From Hydrolagus colliei (Eukaryota), in NCBI GenBank assembly GCA_035084275.1, contig CM068749.1:16740001-16804000 (forward strand): a stretch of 64,000 nt of DNA. Reading direction: 5' to 3'. The translations under genes and the position numbers were made by a program. Shown piece after piece: positions 1 to 32,300 of this stretch (position 1 is the stretch's first letter; each line of letters starts with the position of its first letter). Under the pieces are notes generated by a model. The model had not been told where the DNA came from. It saw only the letters and a list, made by a program, of their open reading frames with translations, and searched no databases.

Positions 1-104
1 TAATGTTTTAGACTGTATTATGCAGAGAACATACTTTGGCTGTCATTTGATAGTGTGTTAAAATAGCAACGGTGCATTGAGTGCATCGAAACCAGGAGAC
101 TAAC

Positions 105-6100: not shown

Positions 6101-9100
6101 ACCACATCATGTTACCTGCAGGACATCTTCAGGGCAGGATTGTCGCTCTGCGCAGAATCTGTACACCACAGAACCATATCCAAGAAGTACAATTTTGCGA
6201 AGGATGGGAGATTGTCTTATTTGATCAATGGCGAGGAGTTCCTATACAGAAGAGACACAGAGGAGATTAATCTTTACTTTTCTCATCTGACACCTCTAAC
6301 AATTGAGCACTCCCCAGCAATGCATCAGAGTGTCAGCCTAGATTCTGTTCCATACTCACTTTAGCAATAGGCATGCTCTGTCGGTCGGCTTTGAGTTGTT
6401 GCATTGCAAGAACCAAAACCTGAGCTGCTTCAATGGTTCTGATTTCCGAACTTTGAATTTTGCGTTTGAGCAATCTCAGGGTGTCAGCTGTTCCTGCTGC
6501 GGGAAGTGCTTCCAAAAGCCATTGTCTACATCTAGGAAATAAAGTGAGAACATTTTATTTCTATTCCTCTCACTCCACCGTGTATCCTTTTTTTCCCGCA
6601 AGTGTGTGGGTGGATGGAGTGTCTGGGACTACTTTAAGTTTTGGGGGGAATTTTGCAGTCATGAAAACAGATGATGGGGAATGGTTTCCACCTTTAATAC
6701 ATGGACATTAATCATTTAATAGGCAAACATACTGCAGTTGCTGTGCAGTGTAAAGATTATCATAGTTGTTCAATCAATTCTATGTATTCCAGCAACAGAA
6801 AATAAATCTGCACCCAGCTTCTTTTATAAGAGATTCTACTTTCCTTATATGAGATTGTCAGGTCAATGAAGATTTTAGGGGATTATGTACGATACAACTA
6901 CATTGATACAGATACATGGGGCACTAGATTGCGCAGATTTGTATAATCTTGGAAAATAGGTTGTGTTGTTATTCACTGCTCTAACTTGTACAAGGGGAAG
7001 TCAAATCATCATCAAAAACTTGGTTAGTTGCATTCTCTTTGAGTTCTTGATATAAAAATAATTGCTCCACAGGCACTACACAGCTAAACATCTATCCTGA
7101 CATTGATCTTAGATTTTACAATTAATGTCACTGTGATTAATTAGTTACCTGTATTCCTCTGTATCGTGCCTGCCCATTGCGTTTGAAAATCGCTTCCAAG
7201 TTTTTGCAACTGTTTCAAATGAGGCAAGTCGGAGAAGCTGGATAAGTTGAAGAAATTTATCTGGAGCGTCCATTCGGACCTCCTGTTGGTTGTATTGAGC
7301 CAGGTATCTCAAGATGTTAACGATCTATAGAAAGTAGGAAAGTGTAAGATATGAAGGTTTAAAATGTGAGGGTCACACAGCATATCCTAAAGTACAAATA
7401 TTATTGGAAATATTTACCTGTGCCTCTAGATTATCGTATTTCAGCAATTGAATTGGCTTCTGGAGTACACTATGGTCGGTAGTGTATTTCAAACTTCCAC
7501 GGGGCATCAATTTAACCTGTGGCACGGGCACAGCTTCTGCTCTGATATCATCTAAGATAAGGTTTTGCCTGCAAAGAAAAATATTGCATTGATATTTTGT
7601 ATTGATAAACAAAAAACACAAAATGCAGCCGATGCTGGAAATCTGAAACAAAAATAGAAATCGCTGGGAACACTCAGCAGGTCAGGCAGAAACTATGGAG
7701 AATGGAAAAGTGAATCAACGTTTCGGGTCCAAGACCCTTCATCAGAATTCATAAACATTTAAATGGAAATATGAGTGAGAATTTGTTTCTTTGGGATGCA
7801 GCTCCTTTTAGTAGATTCAGGTGAACTGGAATCGTTCGGAATTCTAAAGTCTAAAATTGTTTATGTACATGGATTTAAAAATGCCACATTATAGAAATAG
7901 TGAGAAATGAATACTGTAAAATAAAGTAAGAGAAGTCATAAAAACTGGTAAACTCTCCACTTTTATTCTAAATCAATGGAGAAAATCTGCACTCGATGTG
8001 AGTGAGCTCTGCCTATGACTCATGTGATGCATTCAATGCTTAAGTTGTAATTGAACTATATACTGTACTTAGGGCAGGCTGTATGTTGTTTATTTCAACC
8101 TGGACTCGAAATAGTACATCAACAATTCCTGTTTCTGTTTGCTGATTCTTGCAAGAGATGTCAGTGAGTTCAGTGTGAAACTTGGCTGCCTTTCCTCCAA
8201 TAATGAAGTAGCCAAAGCTTACATTGTCTAGACTCATGAAAACTGGGCAGTGTACCTGAGCACAACTAATATATGTGGCATCTCCTGTCTCATCAGTTGG
8301 CAGAGGAGAGGAAGGAAGTTGAAGGGGTTTAAAAACAAGATAATGCAATTCAATTGTAAGATATTAATAATCCAAGCATCAAACACTTACTTTGCCTCCA
8401 AAATAGCACTTCCATCACGTTCATGGAATGGCGTGAATTGATGCAATTCCTGTGATCTAGCTTCAATAATGAGAGCACCGGATGATTTTGTGGGTTTCAG
8501 AAGTTGGGTAATAGCTACAGTACCTCGGAGATTCTTGCCTCTCTAAAGACAGAAAAAAAAAAAAATTTGCAAAATGTACTGAAGAAAGTATATCAGAGTA
8601 GTTCGTCATGGCCCTATTAATTTACCATCTATCATAAGTCAGGTAACTATAATAATAAAACTGACTGTGGCATTTGATATAGTGTCTTATCACATTGTTG
8701 AGACATCTCAAAGCCCTTCACAGGATACACTGTAAATTGGATTGATTGCATTTTGCGGGTGAAATGTGGCAGCCAATTTACACACAGCAGTGTCCCATAA
8801 GCAACCACGAAATGAGTAACCAATTATATTTGGGGAACTTGTTAGGTAAAAAATCAACAGCTTCGCCAAATAAAATGATGTAAAAATCAGTGCCACAGTC
8901 GAAATCAGCGCACTGGCAAACAACAACAATCTGAGAAACTCTATTCTCTTTTTGAATAGTACAATAGGATTTTTAATGTTCACCTGAACAGGCAGAACTG
9001 CAATGCAATACAATGCTCTCCCAGCACTGCTTTGGAATGTCCACCTATGGTATGTCATTCTGCGGTAATTACAGTATAGTTTTACAGGGCTTCATGAATC

Positions 9101-10820
9101 ATATATTTAAGAAATAATCTGGTCCTTAGCTTGAGATATATAGATAACATAAAACATCGAGAACAAACTCAAAATAGCATGTTTACCTGTTGACAAGTAG
9201 GGCAGGGTAGTGCATAAGCCACACCAATTTGTTGAATGGCCCTGTCCTGACAATTGCTCAAATCCTTTGATTTTGTTACGATAATCTGGTTGGCCTTACT
9301 GTCTTGTTGAAGTATATATCTTGTAAGGCAGATGCCTTCAATTCCAGCCTGGTGGGTGGGAAAAGCAAAATGGTTTATTGTAAGGCTGCATGAATTTTTT
9401 TTTCAGGAATAACCTTGCGGTGAGGCGTGAGGTCTGAACCTTTTACCTCTTGTAACTCATAGACATTTTGTGTCTTCTTAATGGTGATCTGAAGCAAGTT
9501 CAAAATGCCTCTGTGGATGTTGAGAATATTATCTGGCAAGGTTTCAGGGGCGTCGATTCTTCCAACTCGGCCATTGATGTATTCAAACCTCACAGGTCTG
9601 GTCAGGTCTGCTGCCAGTTTCTGTGACAGTTTACTTGTTGTAGGTAATGGTACACTGGGTGCAATGCCATTGAGCTCCTGAATCTGAGGGTCTTTGATCT
9701 GCAATACAAATGAGCCGAAAAGAAAATCATATAAATTCTCAAAGCCGTTCATAGCACTTGAGCAAGACCTACTCTTGCTCAAAACAGACTGTGTGTTTTA
9801 ATGTTTTGATAAATTCAACAGTTCAAGCTAACGTTGATTTAATTGTAAAAATAAAGCGATTTCAATAGTATTTTAGAGGAGCTTTCTAAAAACAAAATGC
9901 AATTTGCCAACTGTAGATGAAATGTCTTGTGAATGCAGAGTGTGGTAACCCCTAAGAATCGCAAAGGATTGTTGTGAAAAATTTTAGTTAACTACACAGC
10001 ATTCTTTACTGTGAGTAATTGATACCACGTAATACAACACAGTGCAAAAAATTAGAACTTTGGTACTTTCCCGTTGGGCTTCTTGCAACTTTACTCAATA
10101 ACACAATAAGCATCCGATATACAAGAGTGACTTCAATCTTTTGTCTCTATAAAGCGCCTTGAGATGTCCTCCCGATGTGAAAGGCACCACATAAATGCAA
10201 AAATTGGTATTGTGTTGCTCCTGATTCCAAAACAAATTGTGCCACTTGGACCCTCAATAAGATTAATTTCTTGTAGGCACTCGCATTATTCATTTATTAT
10301 TTATATTATAAATCATCTTACCATCATCAGATAGGTGGTTTGTGCCAGTGCGCTGATTTGGACTCTGGCAGAGATTTTTACACCTGCTCTGTTCAGACCA
10401 TTTTCTGGAAGCCCAGTCAGAACCACACCATCATACTTGTAAACATAGGTCTGCCTTTCGCTGAAGTTGGGTTGAGAACTCTTTTCACTAGATTGGTCTT
10501 CTGCTAGCAAAACATAATTATATTACAGTATTGATAGGAACACACAGAAATAAACCCATATTGCAAAATATCAGTGTTCAGCAAGTAAAGTTATTCTTAC
10601 CTGTTCTCGACCTGTGACTCCCTGGAATTGAGAAACAAATACAAGTCAGGGAAAATATTCTATTAAATAATCTAAATTTTTTCAATACATTTTTCTAGAT
10701 TTAACACAAAATATTTTTTGAATGCAGTAAAAATAGCTAAACATAGCTACCGGTTCTAAGTAGAACATTTTCCAACTTACCCACGAGGGTTAGACCCAGT
10801 AAGAAAATGATTCCCCTCAT
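105..10820 (-). CDS. vtg: Vitellogenin, left copy (vtg-L); 5' part only (exons 1-22, lipovitellin heavy chain); gene continues beyond base 1
   Basis: ATG at 10820 (MRGIIFLLGLTLVG signal peptide; 40-bp exon 1, 21-bp exon 2). Approximate exons: 10781-10820, 10601-10621, 10322-10503, 9447-9698, 9187-9348, 8391-8543, 7418-7568, 7149-7324, 6360-6525, 6116-6242, 5810-6028, 4801-5020, 4164-4262, 3671-3795, 3461-3562, 3224-3343, 2916-3100, 2088-2167, 1702-1888, 1286-1431, 610-829, 105-238. Vitellogenin motifs: PNFSERQTYVYKYDG..GLPENGL, NIHRGILNLLQITIKKTQNVYELQE, ETSLQVASFTYSHMKAL, PTGLGLPMELS, EKIVLEIQTGSKAASK. Confidence 0.95.
1000..1252 (+). mobile_element. L2-type LINE 3' fragment
   Basis: ..LKTFLFDRA-like end followed by the tail gcgccttgggatgtcc..gacatgaaaggcgccatacaagtgtaattttgttgtt. 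Confidence 0.65.
2200..2584 (+). mobile_element. L2-type LINE 3' fragment in vtg-L intron 17
   Basis: Encodes a GGRGFSHYATRLWNSLP..LKTFLFNCAF-like ORF2 end, a 3' stem-loop region and a (GTT)n tail. Confidence 0.8.
5240..5612 (-). mobile_element. CR1-type LINE 3' fragment
   Basis: atcatagaatcatagaa is the reverse of the (TTCTATGA)n CR1 tail; aggccattcggccc stem; the upstream sequence resembles the CR1 ORF2 C-terminus. Confidence 0.8.
7612..7752 (-). mobile_element. Penelope-like repeat terminal fragment
   Basis: aaaatgcagccgatgctggaaatctgaaac..actcagcaggtcaggcag..aacgtttcgggtc..gacccttcatcagaa resembles a common chondrichthyan repeat (recognised from memory) and contains the hammerhead motif typical of PLE terminal repeats. 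A degraded relative occurs near 12210-12260. Confidence 0.6.
7711..7751 (-). ncRNA. Minimal type-I hammerhead ribozyme motif in a Penelope-like repeat remnant (vtg-L intron 6, sense orientation)
   Basis: The minus strand reads UGAAUU-CUGAUGA-A-GGGUC-UUG-GACCC-GAAA-CG-UU^GAUUCA. This gives both core boxes, a 5-bp stem II, a 6-bp stem I (UGAAUU/GAUUCA), a palindromic ACGU stem III and a GUU cleavage triplet. Confidence 0.7.
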
Positions 10821-16568: not shown

Positions 16569-19500
16569 CTATTCTTCAATACAGTCACTGTGGGAATCCA
16601 CAGAGCGGCGTACATCAAAACTTAGTTCACTCATAAAAGGATCTGTTGAGAGAACAATATATGCTTAGTTAATGATTTGAATCGTGGTCAGATAGTAATA
16701 TTTTGCAGAAGAATATTTCAGTCTATCTGACACAAACATGAATTCTTCAATGAGTTTACATTTAGTGACATTTATAATATTCATCACCAGATTAATTTAT
16801 TTTTTACCACAGTCATTGTATGTTTTCTTTCTTATTTACTTATTTTCTTATTAACAAAAATAATTTAATGGTATAAACTTAGCTTCACAACGAGAGCATC
16901 CTCCAAAAAGAATACAGTACAGTATGTAAAAAGGCATCTGCAAAAAACTTACTGGAAGGTACACAATGGAAAGCAACACTGACTGGGACTCTTTCCGTTG
17001 GTGCGCAGCCAGGGAGACAGCGTTGAACTAATTCAATTGGCGAGCACCTGGATTCCCTGCCTTCAAAACTCAGTGATGAATCTACTTCCACAAATTCCTG
17101 TCGAACCTTGCACTCTGAAGTAAAAGAAGATACAGTGTTTTACAAAGAGCTGTTTTTTTCTTTTCTTTAGTGACACAACATGATTTAACGGTGATTCCAA
17201 ATCCCCTACCATCCTTGCAGGTGGTTCCTGAACATAACCACGACTGGAAGAAGACGTCAACGCTTTGAGTTTGGTTGTGATTTGGCATGATCATCTTTCT
17301 CTCCCCATCGTTATATCCACAAATACCACATGTCCGCTTATTCATCTGGTTCACTACAACCTTAAAACACAGTGTAACATTTTTTTATTAGTGCAATTCA
17401 ACCACAATACCCCAAAAATCTACTTGAAGAAGTTTCTTATCAATCAGGTCAGATACCTGCACTTTGTTTCCATCAAAGTATATTAAGTCCAAATTCAATT
17501 CAGATGCTACCAGAAGAATTCCAGTGCCATTTGTTTGAATCCGGACACCTAAAACAAGAAGGAACAGTGTTTTAATCAAGTTTAAAACCTACAGATAGAT
17601 TGTGTAACATACTGACAAAGTTGCAGTTATGTAGCAGAAACAAACTGTATTTTTGTTTAGCTCACCATGATCCCTAAAAACATACATTATTCACCATGAT
17701 CCTAAAAATGTTAAGTCTAGAACTGAGTTGTGTGACATGGTAAGTTGCAATGATAGGTAAGTTAAGCTTTCACCAGTTTGGAGTGGAACACAATTAAATT
17801 GTGTGGTTCCACATGCCAAACATTTATTGCTACCGTTTTGGGAAATATAACCCTCTGTAAAATTTGTTCGTCACTCACCTTGTTCAACTCTTGGTAGGGA
17901 ACTGATTGGAAGCTCCACATTGTTCATTTTAAGTTTAATATCTTGACCTTCTGGATATGCTTCAATGACCCTGTTTAGAAACAAAACCACAAATTCTATT
18001 CAAGAAACTAAATTTCAGGGAAGGCATCGAGAGAAGATACAACATTGTGTGATCTACTTTCTCCAGCTTTGATGGTGAGTTTTATACACAAAACTAGAGA
18101 GAGAAAAAAAGACAGCCTGTAGTAAAGCACAGGACACTTAATGAATAGAGTACTATCTCTGTTTCGTTTCTGTGGATTTACAGTTGGTGTCTACTTTAAG
18201 ACAATGATCTGCAACTTGCATTAATATATTCAAGCACTGACATGCTACTCAAAGATCTCAGGTAACTGCAACAAAATTTTAAGTTCTGAGTCTAAGGGAT
18301 CAAAGTCCTCAAGGTACTAGACAGTGATAATGCCTTTTAAAAATGTCGGCTTTGATTCATCATTCTCCATGCTCTTTGTCAACATTCATTTATATTCTAT
18401 AAATCTGGGTTTTTGCATTGAACTTGTAAACAGTATAAACTGTTTTACTGAACAGTATAGGACAGTAAAACAATCACTTCTGATGGTACTTACATGTTGG
18501 GATTTGACAGGATAAGTTTTATCCCCTTCCTTGTTTGATCCTTAGCACGTTTCATTAATAAAACAAATCTTGGTACACTTGAACAGTCTTGGGTCAGCAC
18601 ATAGTAGCAATCATTAGGAATTTGATATTTTAATGTCTGATTGTCAAATGTCTGAACTTTGCCTGGTTCCGCCAAACACCTACCTGCAACAAAAACAAAT
18701 AGATTACAGAACATAACGTTTTGTGAATAATAATAATAATCCTTATATTGAAACCTCCCAAAGGGCTTTACAGGATTTTACTGTAACATTAAAGTTTCAA
18801 CTCACATTCAGGATTCCAATGATTTAAATTAAAGCAACAAAACGGAATTCAATAAATCAATTAAGTTTGCTAAGTTGTCAAGCCAAGAGTAGAAATAATA
18901 GTTACGTTGGTTCACTGTCAGAAATATGTCTGGAATTTCAGTAATGCTTTTGAATCCTCTTGCTTTTATTCGTGGAGCAATTGCACTGATGGGAACGGCT
19001 AAAGGAATTTGAGCACCCAGATAGTAGGCCGTCATCTGAAAGAGGAGGAAAAGTTCTGTGTTATTTCAGCATAAAAAACATCAGTTCTCAACGCAAAGAA
19101 ATATAACAATAATAACCATCACTTAAAATGCAAGAGAAGTGGTAAATACAGATTGCAATACCTTGTAAACTTTAATGATGGTATCGATAGTCCGTGGTGT
19201 TGTTAGAGCAAACAAAACTGTAATCTGTCGAGAAGGATTGCTCTGATATCTTTGGGACATTCCTGACAGGTAGGCAATTCCTGGTAATGATCCTCCAACC
19301 CTGAATCCAGAAAACAAGCATCATTAAGCACGTCGCTTTCTGCAACATAGAAGGTGCACACTAAAACAAAATAAATATGTTATTCTAAAGCTTACATTCT
19401 TCCACTTGATTTCAGCCAATCAGGAATCCTGGACCATTGAACTTCAATCTTAAGTGCTGGATTTCTTGCAAGTTGACCAATTGATGCTTTAGCAGACACC

Positions 19501-22500
19501 TTATAGTCCTGGCAGTTTTGACCCCATCTCAATAATACCTACAGAATATTTTTGATAAGGTTATTTTCACTGAATAATGAAAAATATTCTTGATGCAGAT
19601 TCACGTAGCTACAGTAGAATTGTATATTACCATTGCTTTATTTCCATGAGGCATGATACCATCAGCACAGATTTTCCACCTGCTGTCTTCAGCCAGTTCC
19701 ACCACACGCAAGTGAAATCTGGGTTGACGATCTGAAACCTCTGCGAATCCAGTGATTTGATAGCCTTGCTGTTTCCTGTCAATCCTTACTGCCCGAAGAA
19801 GGATGGTGAGGATAGGGGAACCTGCGCTCTTGATGAGCTCGCCCTAGGGTTACAAAGAAATATATTTCATAAAGTGATTAATTGGACAGGAGCTCGTCTA
19901 AGTTCTCAAGCACCCTGGAACTTTACTGTTGAGCAGAAGACAAACCTGGCGAGATGATTGAAGAATTGCTGAGCTGCTGCTTATTGTTCGCTTTGAGGAT
20001 TGTTTACTTCCTAATATGCCTCCCAGTTCCATTCTTCTGCTTGAGCGCTAAATGGTTCAGAAGTAAAGTTACGCATTGTTATGCTGTGAAGCATATATCT
20101 ATATATATATCTATATATCTATATATATCTATATATATATAGCAATTATACAGCATCTATTTTAATAAAATATTAATAGGGATAAAGAATAATCGACATT
20201 TTCCATCTTTCAATTCATACAGATTAACTCTAAATAGTATGATATAATAATAATGAAAATCTGCATTTGATATAGCACTTTTCATGTCTTCTATAAATGC
20301 ATCAAAGCACTTCACAGAATATACTGTGAAGTGAATTGAATGTATATTTGTAGGCGACATAAGGCAGTCAATTGTACATATTAGTGTCCCACAAACTGTC
20401 GTGGATTGAAGTAACCAATTTTATTATTGTGTGTGTTTATTGCTGACCATTGTCAATGCTATCCAGGTGTGAAGTTTACCCAATTACGTACTAGGTTTTA
20501 AATCAGGCCAAGGTGTCAAAGCAGAATGTGGTCTTACCTCACTGCGATATGTTGACCTGAACCGAAGCATTAAAATCTCTGCACTCTTGAGATTTATTTC
20601 AAAAAGAAAAAAAAAATCATTTTCAGTTATCATTGGACATTATTTACATGGAAATCACTGTAACTGTCAATGCATAAATATTTATCGTTTGCAATTGTTT
20701 ACAACCTCTCTACAATACACTGGATACTGCATTTGCTGGCACCAGATTGTCAACTTCATAGAAATTAATCATTTTAACCATGATTGAAGGAGTCGCTACT
20801 CATCAAAACCCTGGGACACTTTCCCTCAATCCCTCCACCTTGCACCCTCCCGCATGAAAACCATCCTTTTTGTTCGGTCACCTTCCCACCGTCTCTCCTC
20901 CTAACTTGCTATCAGACTCAACAGCCGTGAAGTGCTCCGAGACGCTACTCTGACTTTAGGGCGCTATATAAATCCAAGCTGTTGTTGTAGTATGATTACC
21001 TCCATCCTCCTGGATGATCTCCGTCTGTCGCTGGATCCGCGTCTGTCACTGGATCCCCGCCTGTCACTGGATCCTCGCCTGTCACTGGATCCCCGCCTGT
21101 CACTGGATCCTCGCCTGTCACTGGATCCCCGCCTGTCACTGGATCCTCGTCTGTCACTGGATCCCCGCCTGTCACTGGATCCTCGCCTGTCACTGGATCC
21201 CCGCCTGTCACTGGATCCGCGTCTGTCGCTGGATCCGCGTCTGTCGCTGGATCCGCGTCTGTCACTGGATCCGCGTCTGTCACTGGATACGCGCATGTCA
21301 CTGGATCCCCGTCTGTCACTAGATCTGCGTCTGTCACTGGATCCCCGTATGTCACTGGATCCCCGTATGTCACTGGATAAGCGCATGTCACTGGATCCCC
21401 GCATGTCACTGGATCCCCGTATGTCACTGGATCCCCGTATGTCACTGGATAAGCGCATGTCACTGGATAAGCGCATGTCACTGGATACGCGCATGTCACT
21501 GGATCCCCGTCTGTCACTGGATCCCCGTCTGTCACTGGATCCCCGTCTGTCACTGGATCCCCGTCTGTCACTGGATCCCCGTCTGTCACTGGATCCCCGC
21601 CTGTCACTGGATCCCCGCCTGTCACTGGATCCCCGCCTGTCACTGGATCCCCGCCTGTCACTGGATCCCCGCCTGTCACTCATTCTGCGCCTGTCACTGG
21701 ATCTGCGCCTGTCACTGGATCTGCGTCTGTCACTGGATCTGCGTCTGTCACTGGATCTGCGTCTGTCACTGGATCTGCGTCTGTCACTGGATCTGCGTCT
21801 GTCACTGGATCTGCGTCTGTCACTGGATCTGCGTCTGTCACTCATTCTGCGCCTGTCACTGTTTTTACTAGATGATATTAGTCTGCTGCTGCTGCTGATG
21901 CTGCTACTGCTACTCTGCAACCTGTTACTTCTTCTTTCAAGTCCCTGATCATCTGGGGAATCTCCACGTATTCTATCAAGTGAACGTCTGCTCGATCGGC
22001 GATCACTTCTAGTAAAGTGGTATGATCTTCTGGAACTGGATGAGGAACCTATAGAGGTGTTTCTTCTTCCGCTCTGTAAATCAAATAGCATCTTAAGCAA
22101 GTTTTGCCCACAAAATATACAATCAATTAACTTTACAATGTATTCTGTAATGCGCTTCGGGATGTCGCGAAGGCTTGATAAAACCCTATATCAAATATAA
22201 AGAATACTATGATTATTTATCTTTTATTATAAGTAGTTTAGCTATAACTATTCCTCACTGGAGAGATCAGAGGGAAAAGAGGATCTGGAACTCTTTCTGA
22301 CTTCATTCACCAACTCACAAGGGTGTGAGAGGAGTCGCTCCTTCTGTCTGATATGAACCAAAGGAGGCATAAATCCCACTAAAGTTTTGACCCAGTTTTG
22401 GGTGGAAGGTAGAAATGCGATTCAATCTTCCTGAGATCTCTATGCTTTTTTTATTAAGAGACACATTAGTTCCACCTCGCAATGATAATCCAAATATAAC

Positions 22501-25500
22501 ACAGAAAAGAGTGAATATTATTCCTTTGGCGCATGGTTGCCTTAAATTGATATGGTGTTAAAAATGTCACTGAATGTGTCAGAAACACAGAAGATAAACT
22601 TAATACCTCTAAGTGCCTCATAAGAACTTCTTCCTGAATTCTTCCACTTTGTTGGTCCTCTTGGTCTGTCAATCGAATTCTTTTTGAAACTGCTTTTGAT
22701 CCTGTCTGTATTTCAAGCACGATTCTTTCAATTTCTGACTCTGATTGAACTGGAAAAGAAGGTTTATTATGAATCATATATTGCCATCGAACATAATATA
22801 AGAACGTGAGAAATGCGAGATGGAAAAAGACCAAAGGCCATGTCCTCTTATTTACTATTCTAGGCTAGTTGAAACATAATCTTTATGGTCTTGCCCCTTT
22901 AATATCTTAGAATTGAGATGCCTATTTGCTGAAAGTGAAACCTTTGTTGTTTCTGCCTCGTACTGTGAAATAACAGAGAGGATTTGGTCACGGTTGTTCA
23001 GGGACAGACATCACTGATTATCTGGGGAAATACCCAGCAATGGGAGACCCGGGGACAATCACAGGTTCTATTACCTATCTCACAGTTTCATAGCCAAATC
23101 CCAATTTTGCTGCTATGAGAGATCCACTCAATAGAAGTGGTGTTATTAAGGTTGTAATTCAAGAAAAGTCTTTGGTACCTGAGGTGTCCTTGGCCTAAGT
23201 CAAAGATACAGAAGTTTGTCACTCAACCAATTCCTGCATTTCCTACTACTGTATAATCGTAGTGACAATCATTGCTATTATGTAACAATTCTAAGTATGC
23301 ATTTTAGGATTGTTTCTTCATCCTCGGGAACCCATCAGAATAAAACAGTTTCCAATAAGATCTGAACAGATTATTGTTTCCCAAGACTTTTGAGAGGAGT
23401 TATTGTTTAATCATCACTGTGACGTAAGGATTTAAATGTAAAAATTCACAAAGACTGGCTTTGGCCTTTCACTATTAAACAATATATCGTTATAGAGAAC
23501 TATAAATAGCCTTTGGGGCTAAATCCGTCTTATTTAATCTCTTTACCTGGTTTGACGGTTACATTAACAGCATGTTGGCCAATGAGACGGTACAATAGGC
23601 AATTTTTGATGAAGACAGAGCTTTTCATTCTAGCATCCAGACAAACTTTTAGTCCAAATTTGGTTGTCAAAGCACAGGTGTGATATGTAGAGGCACGTGG
23701 AATACGTCGCTGTTCTTCAGAGGATGATGTTTCCTGAGATATTATTTCTGGAGACAACTGCGGCTGCAAAGAAACAACAGTCGATTGTAAGTGTAAAGAC
23801 TGACTTATTTTTATTATCATGCCAGACAGTTTAATATCACTGGTGCTTTCCGTGTCACACAAATTGTGGGGGAAAAAGAGTAGTGACTGTACAGTTGCTC
23901 ATTTACTACTTCAGGTAATAAGTCAAAGTCACTTACAATGGCTTGACGATAGCCTATTGATAAGCTATGTGTTGATCTGAAGTCTTGTGCTGTCAAGCTG
24001 GGTTCATTTGCTGAAGGTAAAATTGGGGTCCTCTTTGCTGAAGACAAATCTTCAATATTTATAGAGGTAACAAAAACCTGAGAACTACAAGTCAAATATT
24101 GCATTAGTCATCAATGAAAAATTCAGATCATTTGGTTATAGATGAAAGTAGGAAAATTGTAGTATTTACTTCAGTGATACGATTTGGCGTTCCTCTGCAT
24201 ATGGTTTGGTCTCAATCTTGAGATTTTGCTCTTTCACATTGAACCTTGCAATTACATTGATTGGTTGCTTTATGTTGACTGTTGCTTGGAGTTCCATCCC
24301 TGCTTGCATGAATGGTGCGTTAATGCCCATGGTTGCTTTGGTGACAATGGCCAAACTGTATGTAAAAAGAAAAAGACACGGAAAAAAAAGATGAATTGCA
24401 TGGGTTTTAATAAGTAAAATGCCTGATATGGGTGAGAAAATTAAAAATTGTAATCCCAATACTGACAATTGTTACCAGCAGAATTGAATTGGTATTATTC
24501 CAAGTTCTTTTTAAAGTTTTTTTAAAAAAATGAACATGTTGTAAAATTAATACCTTGGGTTAATTGTAGTTGATATATGAATGGTGGAACTTAGCAGTTG
24601 AGAGATTCTGGTGATGGGAGAAGAAGCAGAAGAAGCAGAAGAAGAACTCTGTGCTTGAACTGTTTGAGGGAAGAGAGAGTTACAATTACATTGTTTCCTG
24701 CAGCATATCTGATGATAGAGAACTCGAGACACTTGTTCCTCTATGTTTTTTACTGCTGTACCAGTTCCAACATGTTGACATGATACTGTTCTTGGTCTAT
24801 TGGTCAGACCTTGCGTGACGTTTAGCCCCGCTCATGACAAGTTGCACCACTTTTTGGGCAGGTGGAATGGGGCATAGCAGAGAACTGAGGGATGTCTCTC
24901 ATAGAGAAGTTAATGTTGTACAGGTAGACTTGCATAAGTAGTCTCATTATAAATTGTATAATTGTCGTTATATGTACATGTATCCGAGTCCTATTCATTT
25001 TCCTACCAAAACTCATTACAATTTCTTCCCACTAATCAAATTGGAAAAATGGCTATATGGTAACAGCTTCTTGGTTCCAAATAATCCTTATTGATTTGCA
25101 TATCATCTCCTAACTTGTATCGCCACTACTGCATTTAGCAGCTACATTGATGAAGTCCTACGTGCTCAGTGATGCGTTTGAAACAAGCTTTTTACACACA
25201 ATTCGTATTAAGTCGGCAGATTCAAACTTATGTGAGGTTTCCACTAACTCGTGCTGTGTGTAAATTGCATTAAATGTTGGTGGTCCTGACGGTATGCGAG
25301 TTTACCCGGATCATCTCTCTCAGCCAAAAATAAAATAAAACGTTTATGGCCTCCCAGGAAAGGAATTTGGAATTAGAAACAGCATTGCAAGCTCTTACCG
25401 TTTACTTTGGCCACTGCAATAGCAGAAGAAATCAAGGACACTTCCATCGGCAGACCGAGGCCTGTTGGCATAACATGTCGAATCTCGGCGACTAGCAATG

Positions 25501-28500
25501 CTTTAGCTGGACGTACTTTAATCCCCCTTGCTAGCTGTTCCATGGAGCTCTTGAGTTGGTTTTGTGCTGAAGTGCTGAGTGTCTGTGCAAAAGGGTGTAA
25601 TAAGAATGATTAGAATTGATGACTGCACAGAGTTCTGTTCTGGTCAGTTCCATCTAGATGTTCTTTTACGAATCATATGTTGCACAGCGTTCTTAGTACC
25701 TGAGTGACTTGTTGAATGTCATCCCTCCTGATTTCAGCAAAAGCTAGCTCTTGACCAAACAATCGGACGTACGCTGACATCAAAGGTACTTCTTCAGGTA
25801 AGGCCTTCCACCCAGAAAGCTGAAACATTAAATTGATCATGAGTAAATACAAAGTACAGTTAAATAGACTAATGTGTCAAAAAAAAAGACACAGTTTGTT
25901 AACCAGTAGTGTTGCTAAATCATTCTTACCGTTTTCAAAATACGTAGCATCTGTTCTGTGTTCGTCCTCTTGCTGAGGGGGACACGATTGATCATCAGCG
26001 CCTCCTGAAGACCCTCTGCGCGTACGCCAACCTGTGTGGATAAAAACAAAGGAATAATTCCATGTCGATGGGAAATCCATTGAGAAGTTTACGGTCCATC
26101 TGTTACTGAATTACTTGAAGGAGTGGTTTGTGAATTTAACATGATGTTGGGTTGTTCAATCTCATAATTTCTCTTTGTTTTGGTTTGGGCACGATGAATG
26201 GACACTGATACTGATTATTTAAGTTCTCAGAGGTTCTGCTAAGCATATTTTAGAACAAATACTTCAATACATCATGTAATAGTTATATCTCAAAATAGCT
26301 TCAGCCAAGCCTCTGGCCACACTCTTACCCTCCCTCCTCCTCAATCCCGACCCCCAGCTCGGGTCCAAATCCCTGACTGTCCAGCTCCTTCCTCCTGATG
26401 TGGAGAGCGCTATACAAATGTAATTTGCATCGTATTGTTACCTCCACAAGATCCATTGAACCTCCAAGACCATGACCTCGGATTTTGCCTAATATGGCTG
26501 ATGGAATGATGCTGCCAGCATTGTTTAACAGAAGCAATCTAGCAGAAGCTCCAGTCATTAGATTATCTAAATCAGAAAGGAACAATGAATTGGCCAGTTA
26601 GTTTAACATTTTAACAAAAGTAAGTCTTTATCCACAAAAGTTGATTTCATCGGTTAAACCCCCCCACTAATTGTGTGCTATGTTCAGTCGTACATTTATA
26701 TTTGAGCCAAACCTGTGACTTTTTGGTTTAAATTAGACATTTCAATTGATTAGTAAATACAGTTGCCCAATTTGGAATATAAATTACACATTTTCTAATT
26801 ATTTATAAGGTATACAGGATGGAAGCCAGTTGTGGTAGACAAGAAAACAAGGGAATTATATAATTTGAGACAAGTTAGCATGATTTGGTCAAGTATATAC
26901 AGTTTGTCTATTAAAGGTTTTAAGGAATATGCATGAAGTTTGCTCTCTGGTGCCTCGTCTAAACATGTAGATATGTACACTGCAGTTAGAAATCTTTCCT
27001 TTAAAAATTTGCTAGGACAACACTTACATCTAAACATATCAATGTGGAAAACTTTGCTGTATCGGATACCGAGACGGTCAAGTCTGGGGCTCAGGAGTTT
27101 GACAGCTACGTTGCAGGAAGCAGCCCTATTAACATGAACATTTCAGATTATCAATACAGGTTCCATGCTGGTGAATGCTGAGTTTCAGGACAATGAATTT
27201 TGCACAGGTAATAAGTTCATTATATTAAGTTATGTGTGCACTTACAATGTAGCGATTCCTGGCAGTGAGCTTCTGGACAGAGCTTTCATATGTGAATAGG
27301 TAAAGCTGGCAACCTGTAAACTGGTCTCCTTCAGCAGTGAATCAGCTACTGCTGTCACCAAAGTTAAACTGGGTTTGGTAGAAAACAACACAACGCAAGC
27401 CACCATTCGTACTTCAGGATGATTTCTTCGGTTCATGAATATCTCGATGGTAATATCTTGTACCTGTCACAAAAGAAAAATAAAGTAAGTTGACAGCAAT
27501 CCAAGCATCATTTAATAGATAGTTCTGTACTTCCAGTTCTAGAACTTGTAGTGTTTACATTTAAGCAAATGTTATTAAGCATTTTATGTGAGCTCGTTCG
27601 ACTTTAACAAAATGAATTTAGTAAAATAACTTTTTAAAGCTGAAATAAAAGGAATGCTTGTCTTGCCTTTCGTGGGTCTCTCCTTGCAATGTTACGCAGT
27701 GAAGCTACAGCATCAACCTGAACCTTTAGTGGGAGACTGGATGCTGCACTGCCAAAGCCAGGCAAGAATTTCTGAATGCGTTTTATGCTTGTTGACTGTC
27801 CAGCATTACCGACTGCTTTGAGGCCAAGAACAATCTCCTGTTCGTGGGAACGACTGCCAGCATCGGCAAGCAGATCATGGAGTGGCTGGAACAAAAAAAA
27901 ACCTCTGTGAGACATTCGTACAAACCATATAATACAGATCATTTCTCATATTATTAAACCACATCATGTTACCTGCAGGACATCTTCAGGGCAGGATTGT
28001 CGCTCTGCGCAGAATCTGTACACCACAGAACCATATCCAAGAAGTACAATTTTGCGAAGGATGGGAGAGTGTCTTATTTGATTGATGGAGAGGAGTTCCT
28101 ATACAGAAGACACACAGAGGAGATTAACCTTTGTTTTTCAAGCGTTGTAAACAAATGGCAAAAGGTATTTGATTTTTTGTTCTCTAAAACGTACAAAAAT
28201 GAGGTGGGATCATACTCACTTTAGCAATAGGCATGCTCTGTCGGTCGGCTTTGAGTTGCTGCATTGCAAAAATCAAAGCCTGAGCTGCTTCAATGGTTTT
28301 GATTTCCGAACTTTGAATTTTGCGTTTGAGCAATCTCAGGGTGTCGGCTGTTCCTGCTGCGGGAAGTGCATCCAAAAACCAGCGCCTAGATTTGGGAAAC
28401 AAAGTGAGAACATTTTCTGGTGTTTCTATCTTATTGCCGCGTTCAAACCATAAACCTTTTCCTCAAGTGCATGGATGGGCTAAATGTCAAGACTAAGATT

Positions 28501-31500
28501 TCACCCTCAAATATCTTACTCAAAACATTTTCAGTGCCACATTAAAGGCATTTAGATCATGTGTAATGCACAATAAAACACATTTTATAATTAATGATAT
28601 TGTAATGAAAAAATTACCTATAATCTTGATTTTCTGCAACTCTCTTCCAACTGTTTGCAATAACCTCAAATGAGGCAGTCCTCAAAAGCTGGATAAGTTC
28701 CAAAAATCTCTCTGGGGCATCAAAGTGGACCTCGTGGTCATTGTACTGACCCATGTGTCTCACGGTGTCAATTATCTGCAGACAAAAGCAACGAATGTGT
28801 CATTCAGGTCTTTATAATGTAGATGAAACACAATATAGAATGACATTGGGACTGTTTACCTGTGCATCCAGGCTTTGATATTTAAGCAACTGAATTGGTT
28901 TCTGCAGTAGATTAGCGGTACATTTGTATTTCAGAGATCCACGATTCTGTAATCTCTCCTGTGGTTCACGGACGAGTTCAACTTTGATGTCATCCAGAAT
29001 AAGGTTTTGTCTGCAAAGAGTAGCATTGATCAGTTTTGCGGCAATCATTTTTTTTAAAATCACACGGCAACACAGTACATAGGGGAGACACAGTTGAGTT
29101 CTCCTTTAGCAGTAAGTAATATCTACACTTCGATATAACCATTACTCAGACCTTATCCTAAATTACAAACATTGTACCTTTATTGTTGTAAAATGTTAGA
29201 AATAACAAAAATATAATTTAGAAAATAATAGAGAAAACTTTCTGCCCATTTTATGTCAGGAGCTTCATTGGTAAAACAATCGACATGACATAGAACAACC
29301 TTCCTCCCACCTTGAAAGGTACTCTAAAATGTTGTTGTTGTTAAGAATGAAATTGAGCCGTAGTGATCCAGAATAACAATAATAATCCTTACATTTGGCC
29401 TCACACCATATCACATATCGTTGATGCATTTTAAAGTGCTTCACGGGATTTTACTGTGAAGTGCCAGTTTAGACCCCTAGTCTGAGGTGATCCACCTAGT
29501 AATGGCAGTTGGGAAACTACTTTGATTTGTGTCCCTGAACTGGAAGATCACGTAAAATCAGACAGACAAAGAGGCCATTTAGTGGCACATTTATAATCTA
29601 AGGATTGAAATTTTACTTTGCCATCGTTCCTATAATTTAAGCATTGGAGGTTTATTTTGCTAGGATACCTATAAACAAAGCATTGGAATCTTACTTTGCC
29701 TCCATCACAGCAGTCCCATCGAGCTCATGGAATGGTGTAAACTGATGTATTTCCCGTGTCCTGGCTTCGACAATAATTGCACCAGATACTTTAGGCTTCA
29801 GAATGTGAGTGAGAGCCACGGAGCTGCGAAAGTTCTTGTTTCTCTAAAGATAAGAAAACAATAATAATGATGTCCTTATTACCCTTAACATCCTTCACGT
29901 CCTTAAGTCCTTAAGATCCATCACAATATGAAAACATGCTTGAATGTGACTATCTGGGAAATAATAAGATGAAACAGTTTACCTGCTGACAAGCAGGGCA
30001 GGGAAGTGCATATGCCAGACCAAGTTGATGCTGGACCCTCTCCTGACAGTTGCTCAAGTCCTTTGATTTTGTCACAGTAATTTGGTTGGTCTTCCTGTCT
30101 TCCTGAAGTACATATTTTGTATTGCAGATGCCTTGAATTCCCATCTAGAAGAAAGGCAAATTGGTTTATTATCCAGCAATAAAAATGCTGGTGTAAATAT
30201 TTGCTACAAAGTGTGAAGGCTGGACATTTAGTTACCTCTTGTAACTCATAGACATTTTGCGTGTTCTTCACAGTGATCTGAAACATGTTCAAAATGCCTC
30301 TCTGGATGTTGAGTATGTTTTCAGGCAAGTCTTCAGGGGCATTGATATTTCCAACTCGGCCATTGCTGTATTCAAACGTAATAGGTTTGGTCAGGTCGGC
30401 TGCCAGTTTTTGTGTCAATTTACTTGCAGTACTTGATGGAACATTGGGCCAAACACCATTGAGCTCCTGAATCTGAGGGTCTGTGATCTGAGAAACAAAT
30501 GAACCCAAACATATAAATGGTCAAAGCTGTGACACACTTGCTATCATTTTACTTAAGACAGTTTGGGTTTTAATATGGTAAATAATTAAAAATTGAAATA
30601 GTTTAAGCAAGATTATAAATGAATCGTGGATGCGGCAGTATTTCGGTAACAGTGTGCTTCTTTAATATATCAGATATTTTGACTGTAAAAAAAATGTAAT
30701 TTATAATTCTGAAATGAGCTGTGTTGTGATTGTAAAGTTTGAGAGTTCAGACTATACAATTCCAAAATGATGTTGCGAAAAATTTGTACACTGTACTTAT
30801 GGTTTTGTTAAGTAGGCAAAACTACTTTATAAGAGTTTATACTTTTGTTTGGCAGTGAAAATAAGGATACCAGGAAATATAACTGAAATGTACAATTCAA
30901 AGAACGAAATTATAAAGCAACATGCATTAGTAAAATAATCAACAATCTGACACTGATCAGAATTTTTAACTTCCTTCTCTTTACACTCTCTATATTTGTG
31001 AGAAGAACAGGGTTGTTGCATAAAATTAATATATCTTGAGATTTAATTTTGTACTGTAATGTTCTACTTACTTCCATCTGGAAGCTATGTTTACCTATTT
31101 GTTTGCCATATATATATATGTTTCATGGTTGATGGAGTCATGGTTGATGGAGTCATCTTGTGCGCCAATGAGATTAATGTCCTATAATTACTCAAATTAA
31201 TGAGTTATTATTTATAAATGATCTTACCTGCATCAGATAGTTTCTTTGTGAGAGTGCACTGATTTTCACTTTGGCATTGATTCTCACACCTGCTCTGTTC
31301 AAGCCCTTTTCTGGAAGCCCAGTCAGGACCACACCTTCATACATATAAACATAGGTATACTTTTCACTGAAGTTGGGTTGAGTCCTCCTTTCATCTGTGA
31401 ACAATGTAAAATTATAGTGCAATATTGATAGGAATACATAGAAATAAACTTAATTTGCAAAATATTAGTGTAAAGCAAGTAAAGCCTTACTCACCGCCAC

Positions 31501-31567
31501 TGGATCCTTGGCTCCCTAGAAATGAGAAACAAATAAAAGTGAGCACAAATTAAATATTCTCAATTTT

Positions 31568-31616
<49 letters not shown>

Positions 31617-31713
31617 AACAAATAGGTAAACATAGCTTCCAGATGGAAGTAAGTAGAACATTTTCTAACTTACCCACAAGGGCGAGAGCCAGTGCAAAAA
31701 TGATTCCCCTCAT
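16569..31713 (-). CDS. vtg: Vitellogenin, middle copy (vtg-M); complete, 35 exons: LvH, repeat-type phosvitin region, LvL, vWD (beta') and C-terminal domain
   Basis: ATG 31713 (MRGIIFALALALVG), stop TAG at 16569-16571 (..SVDSHSDCIEE*). Approximate exons: 31674-31713, 31495-31515, 31228-31394, 30236-30487, 29983-30144, 29695-29843, 28860-29010, 28618-28774, 28220-28385, 27973-28098, 27667-27886, 27246-27463, 27028-27126, 26442-26566, 25930-26031, 25699-25819, 25399-25582, 24553-24658, 24170-24355, 23937-24086, 23547-23764, 22607-22749, 21000-22073, 20538-20585, 19946-20047, 19631-19843, 19397-19538, 19162-19300, 18906-19035, 18494-18683, 17879-17971, 17457-17548, 17210-17360, 16953-17114, 16569-16642. 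vWD motif TCGICG present. Confidence 0.95.
20093..20141. repeat. (TA)/(TATATATC)n microsatellite
   Basis: Direct reading. Confidence 0.9.
20780..20990 (+). mobile_element. L2-type 3' fragment ending ~10 nt from the exon-23 donor of vtg-M
   Basis: Tail gtgaagtgctccgagacgc..agggcgctatataaatccaagctgttgttg. Confidence 0.6.
21000..22073 (-). CDS. vtg: vtg-M exon 23, phosvitin-position exon (358 codons; Ser/Arg/Asp-rich)
   Basis: Acceptor tttacag|AGC at 22073 and donor GAG|gtaatc at 21000, both phase 0. It lies within ORF 20964..22100, between the IVLEIQTGSK exon and the short SAEILMLRFRSTYRSE exon. Confidence 0.9.
21017..21860 (-). repeat. Coding minisatellite, 18-bp unit (TCCAGTGACAGRCGNGGA-type on the minus strand), about 46-47 copies
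   Basis: The plus strand repeats ctgtcactggatcc(c/t/g)cg(c/t); it translates to SSDRRG/SSDRRR/SSDMRL/SSDIRG units. Confidence 0.97.
31058..31662. repeat. Perfect ~62-bp inverted repeat pair (31058-31119 / 31601-31662) flanking vtg-M exons 2-3
   Basis: aatgttctacttacttccatctggaagctatgtttacctatttgtttgccatatatatatat is the exact reverse complement of 31601-31662. Confidence 0.95.
31573..31612. repeat. (TA)n microsatellite in vtg-M intron 1
   Basis: About 20 TA units. Confidence 0.95.
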
Positions 31714-32287: not shown

Positions 32288-32300
32288 GGTTACGGTGACC
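32288..32300. promoter_or_regulatory. Imperfect estrogen response element (vtg-M)
   Basis: (A)GGTTAcggTGACC(T), followed by GGAT as in the other two promoters. Confidence 0.65.

What the first reader, a model, noticed from the sequence alone, without database searches (positions are those of the whole stretch)
21000..22073. Phosvitin domain replaced by an arginine-rich SSDRRG hexapeptide polymer
Seen: ~280 of 358 residues are ~46-47 tandem hexapeptides (SSDRRG, SSDRRR, SSDMRL, SSDIRG); only short polyserine runs remain at the N-terminal end. Established: canonical phosvitins are long polyserine tracts that become polyanionic through Fam20C-type phosphorylation (S-x-E/pS). Here each unit carries S-x-D, most carry R-R-x-S and a dibasic RR site, and the unmodified polymer is net basic. 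Inference: it could be a phosphorylation-switched mixed-charge polymer (RS-domain-like condensation, yolk platelet packing, mineral or nucleic-acid binding) or a precursor of many short cationic peptides. Together with phosvitin-less vtg-R, this suggests division of labour among the paralogs.
Basis: partly seen in the sequence, partly recalled or inferred. Interest (0 to 1): 0.8.

Follow-up and report, generated by a model that had tools for sequence, protein, structure and literature searches.

The report
Repeat-expanded phosvitin in chimaera vitellogenin
In one of three neighbouring egg-yolk protein genes of a chimaera (ghost shark), a six-amino-acid piece of the normally serine-rich, phosphate-carrying region has been copied 47 times into an arginine-rich repeat, an unusual but probably modest variation of a region that changes fast and is already arginine-rich in sharks and rays.

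Summary
Window 22073-21000 (minus strand) is exon 23 of an intact 35-exon, 1962-aa vitellogenin, the middle of three holocephalan VTG2 paralogs beside SSX2IP. It holds 47 in-frame 18-nt units (282 of 358 residues) with S-D-x-R invariant. The array is not an assembly artefact: a published small-eyed rabbitfish model carries the same exon with at least 20 units, unremarked. None of 57 named vitellogenins from other species has the motif.

The phosvitin was not replaced: its N-terminal 70 residues and exons 24-25 are homologous to the Callorhinchus phosvitin region, and the array appears to stand in for one serine run. All 45 comparison linkers are net basic, and chondrichthyan linkers are already arginine-rich. 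What is new is the periodicity, the aspartate and the length. The array has no S-x-E, S-x-S or furin sites; R-R-x-S is a cytosolic-kinase motif in a secreted protein.

Best reading: a slippage-amplified phosvitin variant, partly phosphorylated by Fam20C at S-x-D into a near-neutral polyampholyte and used as yolk nutrient. Exon inclusion and phosphorylation are untested. New variant of a known kind.

The parts
21000..22073 (-). Exon 23 of vtg-M, the main phosvitin exon; 1074 nt, 358 aa, phase 0/0
   Evidence: AG/GT ends and open frame; 23rd of 35 exons in an uninterrupted 1962-aa model; donor scores above 40 of 65 and acceptor above 24 of 65 other splice sites of vtg-M and vtg-R
21018..21863 (-). 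Coding minisatellite: 47 x 18 nt, consensus S-S-D-R-R-G; 17 distinct DNA units and 9 distinct peptides, arranged in blocks
21864..22073 (-). Non-repetitive phosvitin head (70 aa): Ser runs of 5, 5, 4 and 3, a DSPD motif, Arg-rich; homologous to the C. milii phosvitin exon
   Evidence: tblastn E 1e-8; alignment score 95.5 against shuffled mean 56, sd 9, 0 of 500 shuffles reached it
22607..22749 (-). Exon 22, end of the lipovitellin heavy chain; ends in phase 0
20538..20585 (-). Exon 24 (16 aa), aligning with the L-R-F-R/L-A-F-R type motif seen in shark, coelacanth and bird linkers; strong donor, weak acceptor
   Evidence: donor above 64 of 65 and acceptor above only 2 of 65 other sites, so its 5' end is uncertain
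19946..20047 (-). Exon 25 (34 aa, Ser/Arg-rich end of the linker)
   Evidence: 78% identical to the vtg-R counterpart
19631..19843 (-). Exon 26, start of the lipovitellin light chain (PF09175)
   Evidence: Pfam E 8e-14; 89-92% identical to four C. milii models
16569..31713 (-). vtg-M: intact holocephalan VTG2 gene, 35 exons, 1962 aa, 33 GT-AG introns and 1 GC-AG intron; counterpart of the rabbitfish 'VTG2-1' model
   Evidence: Pfam PF01347, PF09172, PF09175, PF00094; tree; comparison by eye
32288..32300 (.). Estrogen-response-element-like palindrome (1 mismatch) 575 nt upstream of the vtg-M start codon
   Evidence: all 5 one-mismatch matches in the window lie within 2 kb upstream of the three vtg starts; the total of 17 matches at up to 2 mismatches is at chance level (expected 20.3). 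Consensus recalled.
36235..48921 (-). vtg-R paralog: intact, 33 exons, 1563 aa; lacks exons 23-24, keeps the Ser-rich exon 40376-40257 and the vWD region
   Evidence: no remnant of exon 23 or 24 by blastn
1..10820 (-). vtg-L paralog, cut by the window end after exon 22; its phosvitin exon lies outside the window
   Evidence: 86% identical to C. milii XP_007885401

Best explanation
This is the phosvitin region of one holocephalan VTG2 paralog, enlarged by a recent coding minisatellite. The ancestral cartilaginous-fish phosvitin was already short-run, Ser/Arg-rich and basic. In chimaerids, an 18-nt piece at the start of the last serine run (D-R-R-x-M/S-S) was amplified by slippage and unequal exchange and now stands where that run was. 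SHOWN: sequence, exon position, intact gene, presence in a second chimaerid, absence from the other vitellogenins examined. INFERRED from known vitellogenin biology: the gene is estrogen-induced in liver and exon 23 is included; in the Golgi, Fam20C phosphorylates the remaining Ser runs and, less efficiently, the first Ser of each S-S-D unit; this shifts the array from +49 to about -17 to -39 if all 44 such sites are used, or to zero at 25-33 sites. The result is a disordered, self-neutralised Arg/Asp/phosphoserine polyampholyte that keeps the precursor soluble but binds Ca and Fe less well than a polyserine phosvitin. Cathepsin D releases it in the oocyte, it is stored in yolk platelets, and it is finally digested to Arg, Ser, Asp, Gly and phosphate. 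Selection is weak: it keeps the frame and the S-D-x-R core while copy number and position 6 drift.
For: Intact 35-exon ORF with ordinary exon-23 splice sites and an ERE-like site upstream. Head and exons 24-25 are homologous to the C. milii phosvitin region. The rabbitfish VTG2-3 model has D-R-R-Q-M directly before its last Ser run, where vtg-M has D-R-R-R-M before the array (by eye). The same exon with 20 full units is in the rabbitfish VTG2-2 model. S2, D3 and R5 are invariant in 47 of 47 window units and in 20 of 20 rabbitfish units (by eye), while position 6 differs between the species (G/R/V/L against R/G/E/K). 5 of 9 derived alleles are synonymous against 19-27% expected, P 0.02-0.07, with no stops or indels. 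Fam20C phosphorylates phosvitin polyserine (PMC7948968) and S-x-D sites of osteopontin (PMC8154273). Cathepsin D processing and low consensus of the polyserine domain: PMC1770952. Solubility role of phosvitin: PMC4632452.
Against: No transcript or protein evidence; exon 23 is phase 0/0, so skipping would stay in frame, and vtg-R shows that a VTG2 without it is an intact gene. The array has 0 canonical Fam20C sites, and Glu at +2 is the only significant Fam20C determinant (PMC12650399); the S-x-D sites shown in osteopontin need not predict use in an Arg-rich context. The selection signal rests on 9 non-independent alleles and is borderline. The rabbitfish model is a manual, apparently chimeric curation in which the array is cut short, so its copy number is unknown. 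The C. milii vtg-M exon 23 was not found, so the age of the array is open.
Confidence: 0.55

Rival explanations
1. Neutral passenger: a minisatellite tolerated in a barely constrained linker, little phosphorylated or often spliced out, with no role of its own.
For: Linker length varies from 84 to 628 aa among 45 homologs. vtg-R lost the exon altogether. Unit variants turn over between two close chimaerids. Smaller repeat expansions occur in Cetorhinus P0012 and S. canicula P0055 linkers. The synonymous excess is borderline.
Against: S-D-x-R is invariant in 67 of 67 units seen in two species; there is no stop or frameshift; the CpG in codon 5 shows no decay in 47 of 47 units and array CpG o/e is 0.79 against 0.40 for the window. 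Recent homogenisation could also explain this.
Confidence: 0.2
2. Nitrogen store: the array is a gene-encoded Arg/Asp reserve, loosely like cyanophycin, that supplies the ureosmotic embryo with arginine (direct urea precursor through arginase) and aspartate (urea-cycle nitrogen donor).
For: The array holds 96 of the protein's 225 Arg and 2.02 N per residue against 1.42 elsewhere. vtg-M is 11.5% Arg, above all 20 chondrichthyan (5.5-9.9%) and 25 bony-vertebrate (4.0-5.9%) proteins. Catshark yolk-sac membrane makes urea early in development (PMC11136554 citing Takagi 2017).
Against: The array would give 22-51 mM Arg if vtg-M were a third of an assumed 150-350 g/L yolk protein, small beside 424 mM urea in shark Ringer. 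The three coelacanth proteins are not Arg-rich (5-6%) although coelacanths also retain urea (recalled). The Arg bias extends outside the linker (R/(R+K) 0.55 against 0.39), so it may be a general compositional drift. The group comparisons are not corrected for relatedness.
Confidence: 0.12
3. One reading: a phosphorylation-switched condensing polymer, like RS or Arg-rich mixed-charge domains, that drives yolk-platelet packing or binds nucleic acids.
For: Charge crosses zero at 25-33 of 91 phosphoserines and the fraction of charged residues is 0.51-0.82. Arg/Asp mixed-charge domains target membraneless organelles (PMC9324279, search listing only).
Against: The protein is secreted and then endolysosomal, away from cytosolic and nuclear kinases, so there is no known reversible switch (PMC12650399). 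There are no alternating RS dipeptides (read from the sequence). Evenly mixed charges give weak blockiness (general knowledge). Sharks pack yolk platelets without the array.
Confidence: 0.06
4. One reading: a precursor of many short cationic (antimicrobial) peptides cut at RR sites.
For: RR occurs in 37 of 47 units. Zebrafish phosvitin and a 55-residue fragment are antimicrobial (PMC4632452). Cathepsin B accepts Arg-Arg substrates (recalled).
Against: There are 0 furin-type sites. Hexapeptides carry -1 to +2 charge before phosphorylation and almost no hydrophobic face; phosphorylation would make most neutral or anionic.
Confidence: 0.05
5. Assembly artefact.
For: Tandem arrays can be collapsed or expanded in assemblies; no reads were available.
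Against: An independent rabbitfish assembly has the array with different variants. There are 17 distinct units and the longest exact internal repeat is only 116 nt. The window has no N.
Confidence: 0.02

Closest known systems
Small-eyed rabbitfish 'VTG2-2' peptide in Supplementary Data 2 of Ohishi et al. 2023 (PMC10015161), curated from GCA_012026655.1 (Hydrolagus affinis; Latin name recalled, lineage)
   Same: Same exon head, the same upstream intron read through in frame (37 of 39 residues alike, by eye), and 20 full [SM]SDRR[RGEK] units.
   Different: The array is cut at 20 units; E (3) and K (1) occur at position 6 and the M/I/L/V variants do not; the exon is joined to the vtg-R body, probably a curation chimera. 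The paper's main text has 0 hits for phosvitin or serine.
Callorhinchus milii VTG2 models (UniRef A0A4W3HS18, A0A4W3IAF2 and others; XP_007885401)
   Same: Same gene cluster and clade (100/99); short Arg/Ser phosvitin with a DSPD motif, homologous to the head of the exon.
   Different: The phosvitin exon is about 100 aa, with Ser runs up to 9 and no repeat. It appears to be the vtg-L exon, so the true vtg-M counterpart is unseen.
Elasmobranch VTG2alpha/VTG2beta phosvitins (e.g. S. torazame AEM05867.1, A. radiata XP_032883741.1)
   Same: Net basic, Arg over Lys, Ser 20-37%, Ser runs of 5-11.
   Different: 94-246 aa, Asp 0-5%, no hexapeptide period; vtg-M is 436 aa, Asp 12%, Arg 28%, longest Ser run 5.
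Chicken phosvitin (VTG2, P02845)
   Same: Same position in vitellogenin; also encoded mainly by exon 23 of a 35-exon gene (recalled).
   Different: 123 Ser in 216 aa, up to 90% phosphorylated, strong Fe/Ca binder (PMC12224593). In vtg-M only 21 of 134 linker Ser lie in runs of 3 or more.
RS domains and Arg-rich mixed-charge domains of nuclear speckle proteins
   Same: Low complexity, Arg/Asp/Ser, charge tunable by phosphorylation.
   Different: Those are nuclear, dipeptide-alternating and modified by SRPK/CLK kinases (recalled); this is a secreted yolk precursor with no homology to them (no Pfam hit; no Atlas hit).

Membership tests
Vertebrate vitellogenin, VTG2 cluster (gene) | Domain order Vitellogenin_N, open beta-sheet, linker, beta-sheet shell, vWD | tested here: met
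Vertebrate vitellogenin, VTG2 cluster (gene) | Tandem cluster next to SSX2IP | tested here: met
   ADIP domain PF11559 at 59275-59541; synteny described in PMC10015161 section 7
Holocephalan VTG2 | Clade with C. milii VTG2, apart from elasmobranch VTG2alpha and beta | tested here: met
   IQ-TREE on the first 1040 aa of 25 proteins, support 100/99; group named in PMC10015161. Gene conversion among the paralogs may inflate the grouping.
Phosvitin region (by homology) | Ser-rich linker between lipovitellin heavy and light chains, homologous to other phosvitins | tested here: met
   31% Ser, within the 15-43% range of 45 homologs; homology to the C. milii region
Canonical polyserine phosvitin | Most serines in long runs, about 50% Ser | tested here: not met
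   longest run 5; 21 of 134 Ser in runs of 3 or more; chicken values
Canonical polyserine phosvitin | Heavy Fam20C phosphorylation and metal binding | not testable with these tools
   motif count only: 0 S-x-E, 0 S-x-S, 44 S-x-D in the array; 10 S-x-S in the head
Canonical polyserine phosvitin | Released by cathepsin D as a separate yolk protein | not testable with these tools
   needs yolk proteomics
RS domain / Arg-rich mixed-charge domain | Alternating RS, RD or RE dipeptides in a nuclear protein | tested here: not met
   no alternating dipeptides in the unit list; host protein is a secreted vitellogenin
Polyprotein precursor of cationic peptides | Convertase sites flanking cationic amphipathic units | tested here: not met
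   0 R-x-x-R sites; units carry -1 to +2 charge and are polar
Phosvitinless VtgC (for vtg-R) | Loss of phosvitin and of the vWD region (PMC1770952) | tested here: not met
   vtg-R keeps the vWD exons and a 40-aa exon with 16 Ser

The most novel reading that the evidence does not exclude
Chimaerids have turned the phosvitin of one VTG2 paralog into a periodic Arg/Asp/phosphoserine polymer selected as a charge-neutral nitrogen store for embryonic urea synthesis, the extreme of an arginine enrichment shared by cartilaginous-fish vitellogenins, while the sister paralogs keep a short serine-run phosvitin (vtg-L) or have mostly dropped it (vtg-R).
Probability: 0.12. Interest if true: 0.7.

Novelty: new variant of a known kind. 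Interest (0 to 1): 0.4.

Why it matters
What vertebrate phosvitin phosphorylation is for is still unsettled; PMC7948968 says the functional consequences remain to be determined. This cluster offers a natural three-way comparison in one animal: a periodic S-x-D/Arg polymer (vtg-M), a nearly deleted phosvitin (vtg-R) and a short-run form (vtg-L, inferred from relatives). The array is also a clean natural substrate for asking whether Fam20C uses S-x-D in a basic context. The side result, that chondrichthyan phosvitins are biased to Arg over Lys, suggests a testable link to urea-based osmoregulation. If the array is a neutral expansion, its value is small: a lineage marker and a warning that holocephalan vtg models in databases are chimeric across this exon.

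Tried and rejected
1. Homolog search with the whole exon among longer proteins: 0 of 8000 scored candidates passed; weak evidence, because the query is low in complexity.
2. Pfam: no family for the exon. ESM Atlas: no usable hit.
3. The C. milii vtg-M exon 23 was not recovered or 49 (best representative 60% identical to exon 26).
4. Other reading frames of the array: the two other sense frames have 2 and 45 stops; one antisense frame is open. I rejected the antisense frame because only the sense frame joins the vitellogenin exons in phase.
5. Internal cryptic donors score at most 5.4 against 7.8 for the true donor.
6. My first automatic model cut exon 23 short and my first hand coordinates were off by one; both were corrected.
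7. No protein among those fetched has a Ser run above 11, while the tuatara peptide in the supplement has about 19. The protein collection probably filters long runs, so my comparison understates canonical polyserine.
8. Literature: 10 searches found no paper describing this repeat; the library lacks most subscription papers. Cozza 2018 is not held. Yamane 2013 on catshark vitellogenin was not seen and may already note an Arg-rich phosvitin. In the Ohishi supplement, Fig. S1 is a picture and the nucleotide transcripts of Data 1 were not searched in translation (I read parts 1, 7 and 8 of 9).
9. PMC8164579 and PMC6185446 passages added nothing on the array.
10. No structure or complex prediction was run: the region is a charged low-complexity linker.
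11. Metagenome and viral collections stayed unchecked; they are not relevant to a vertebrate exon. The species and assembly of the window were not determined beyond Holocephali, probably Chimaeridae.
Full report
OBSERVATION. The finding is in the sequence as stated. Window 22073..21000 on the minus strand is 1074 nt between an AG and a GT and translates to 358 residues without a stop. From 21863 to 21018 lie 47 units of exactly 18 nt, 282 residues; TRF reports period 18, 92% matches, 0% indels, score 1087. Positions 2, 3 and 5 (S, D, R) are invariant in 47 of 47 units; position 4 is R 37, M 6, I 4; position 6 is G 30, R 12, L 3, V 2; position 1 is S 44, M 2, N 1. The array is R96 S91 D47, net +49. 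Its lag-6 periodicity (z 19.7) far exceeds the best value (4.9) of 46 other vitellogenin linkers.

CONTEXT. The window holds three vitellogenin genes in tandem on the minus strand next to SSX2IP (Pfam; tblastn), the VTG2 cluster of PMC10015161 (section 7). A spliced alignment with hand curation gives vtg-M (31713..16569) as an uninterrupted 35-exon, 1962-aa gene with 33 GT-AG introns and 1 GC-AG intron; the array exon is exon 23, phase 0/0. Its donor scores above 40 of 65 and its acceptor above 24 of 65 other sites of vtg-M and vtg-R. All 5 one-mismatch estrogen-response-element matches in the window lie within 2 kb upstream of the three start codons, one of them 575 nt before vtg-M; the 17 matches at up to two mismatches are at chance level overall (consensus recalled). 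A tree of 25 lipovitellin heavy chains groups the three window genes with C. milii XP_007885401 at 100/99, apart from elasmobranch VTG2alpha and beta. The animal is a holocephalan other than C. milii (86% identity for vtg-L), probably a chimaerid. vtg-R (33 exons, 1563 aa) lacks exons 23-24, with no remnant by blastn, but keeps a 40-aa exon with 16 Ser and the vWD exons, so it is neither fully phosvitin-less nor a VtgC.

IS IT REAL, AND HOW WIDESPREAD? Supplementary Data 2 of Ohishi et al. 2023 prints a small-eyed rabbitfish 'VTG2-2' peptide with the same exon head and 20 full [SM]SDRR[RGEK] units before the model breaks off (counted by eye, consistent with the search counts of 16 and 6 given one line break). 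The model looks chimeric: a vtg-R body, 39 residues of vtg-M intron read through, then vtg-M exon 23. The main text has 0 occurrences of phosvitin, serine or polyserine. So the repeat is in print as raw sequence but unremarked there. Its variants differ from the window's (E and K at position 6; no M, I, L or V variants in the part shown), which argues for a real, fast-turning array. In the window the longest exact internal repeat is 116 nt among 17 distinct units, so assembly error is unlikely. None of 57 named proteins (C. milii, 14 elasmobranch species, bony vertebrates) and none of 40 unnamed vitellogenin-like representatives, many of them fragments, contains even one SDRR. The C. milii phosvitin exon that I could see appears to be the vtg-L one; the vtg-M counterpart was not found, so the array is known only from two chimaerids.

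WHAT IS AND IS NOT UNUSUAL. Across 20 chondrichthyan and 25 bony-vertebrate linkers, all 45 are net basic before phosphorylation (+2 to +48) and Ser is 15-43%; vtg-M has 31%. Chondrichthyan linkers are Arg-biased (R/(R+K) median 0.76, range 0.59-0.94; bony 0.47, range 0.28-0.60), not corrected for relatedness and with several near-duplicate catshark entries. vtg-M is the extreme: 436 aa, Arg 28% (others at most 22%), Asp 12% (others at most 6%), longest Ser run 5, and only 21 of 134 Ser in runs of 3 or more. The collection seems to cap Ser runs at 11 (tuatara has about 19), so canonical phosvitins are under-represented here; chicken phosvitin is 123 Ser in 216 aa and up to 90% phosphorylated (PMC12224593, passages). 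The first 76 residues of the exon align to the C. milii phosvitin exon (score 95.5; 0 of 500 shuffles reached it), and exons 24-25 align too. In the rabbitfish VTG2-3 model D-R-R-Q-M precedes the last Ser run, where vtg-M has D-R-R-R-M followed by the array and then S-R-R (by eye). I infer that the unit arose from this junction and that the array took the place of one serine run of about ten residues, not of the domain.

SELECTION. Among the 44 core units, 9 derived alleles occur, 5 of them synonymous, against 19-27% expected under four mutation models (P 0.016-0.07). All 4 alleles in the S, S, D and R5 codons are synonymous (a post hoc subset). There is no stop or indel. This points to weak purifying selection on a translated S-D-x-R core, but the alleles are few and homogenisation makes them non-independent.

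MECHANISM. Known steps: vitellogenin is secreted by the liver, endocytosed and cut by cathepsin D (PMC1770952, passages); phosvitin is thought to stabilise and solubilise the precursor (PMC4632452, passages); Fam20C prefers S-x-E/pS and also phosphorylates phosvitin polyserine (PMC7948968, passages; the primary paper was not held). The array has 0 S-x-E, 0 S-x-S and 44 S-x-D sites. S-x-D is a minor Fam20C motif, shown at three osteopontin sites (PMC8154273, passages), while Glu at +2 is the only significant determinant overall (PMC12650399, section 3.1). Inference: at most the first Ser of each unit is a motif-based target, giving a net -17 to -39 when all are used and neutrality at 25-33 phosphates. 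The product would be a self-neutralised, disordered polyampholyte with isolated phosphoserines next to arginines, a weaker metal carrier than clustered phosphoserine, stored in yolk and digested as nutrient. I put this at 0.55. R-R-x-S is a motif of cytosolic basophilic kinases (recalled) that a secreted protein does not meet. There are 0 furin sites.

RIVALS. Neutral passenger or skipped exon (0.2): the exon is symmetric, vtg-R does without it, and linker length ranges from 84 to 628 aa. Arg/Asp nitrogen store for urea (0.12): the array holds 96 of 225 Arg and lifts the protein to 11.5% Arg, and the catshark yolk sac makes urea early (PMC11136554, passages); but the yield is only 22-51 mM if vtg-M is a third of an assumed 150-350 g/L of yolk protein, and the coelacanth proteins are not Arg-rich. 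Condensation switch (0.06) and cationic peptide precursor (0.05) lack the kinase access, dipeptide pattern, cleavage sites and charge. Artefact 0.02.

COMPARISON AND NOVELTY. The gene is a member of holocephalan VTG2 on every feature tested. The region is a phosvitin by position and homology but fails the long-polyserine feature, so I do not file it as a canonical phosvitin; it works like one only by inference. It is not an RS domain. Ten literature searches found no description of the repeat; Yamane 2013 and other subscription papers were not seen, and Fig. S1 and the nucleotide Data 1 of the Ohishi supplement could bear on shark phosvitin composition.

VERDICT. Real, lineage-restricted and apparently undescribed, but an expansion within the most variable part of a well-known protein, on an already Arg-rich background, with no functional evidence. 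New variant of a known kind; interest 0.4. The boldest reading left open, a selected Arg/Asp nitrogen-store phosvitin with division of labour among paralogs, has probability about 0.12 and would merit 0.7.

Noticed in passing
window 28385-27667 (vtg-M exons 9-11) and 6531-5810 (vtg-L): Gene-conversion tract: exons 93, 97 and 99% identical and intron 10 100% identical, against 67-84% for the other exons; both genes share a GC donor at exon 11.
   Followed up: partly
window 19843-19162, 30487-30236, 17360-17210 (vtg-M) against the vtg-R counterparts: Patches of high vtg-M/vtg-R identity (exon 4 90%, exons 26-28 84-91% with introns 85-91%, exon 33 95%), suggesting further conversion.
   Followed up: partly
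window 40907-40257: vtg-R has deleted exons 23-24; exon 22 probably ends at 40804 and splices to a 40-aa Ser/Arg exon with a run of 9 Ser. The exon-22 donor is inferred.
   Followed up: partly
window 11359, 11475, 32288, 33577, 49244: All five one-mismatch estrogen-response-element matches lie upstream of the three vtg start codons.
   Followed up: partly
proteins P0001-P0056: Chondrichthyan vitellogenins are richer in Arg than bony-vertebrate ones both inside and outside the phosvitin linker (whole protein median 7.5% against 4.7%).
   Followed up: partly
proteins P0012 (Cetorhinus) and P0055 (S. canicula): Independent short tandem duplications in shark phosvitin linkers: about five 12-residue units in P0012 and one 18-residue duplication in P0055.
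   Followed up: no
proteins P0001-P0004; PMC10015161 Supplementary Data 2: C. milii UniRef models and the rabbitfish VTG2 models appear to mix exons of different paralogs and to read through introns around the phosvitin exon (by eye).
   Followed up: partly
window 24659-24554: vtg-M exon 18 carries a small Ser/Ala insertion from a 9-nt repeat (24619-24644), making it 106 nt against 82-88 nt in the paralogs.
   Followed up: no
window about 53000-59541 (minus strand): SSX2IP exons (ADIP domain); gene not modelled.
   Followed up: no
window 63250-64000 (plus strand) and many 100-190-nt copies such as 20240-20430, 32598-32771, 45504-45627: A LINE reverse-transcriptase fragment (PF00078) and a dispersed SINE-like repeat in introns and intergenic DNA.
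   Followed up: no
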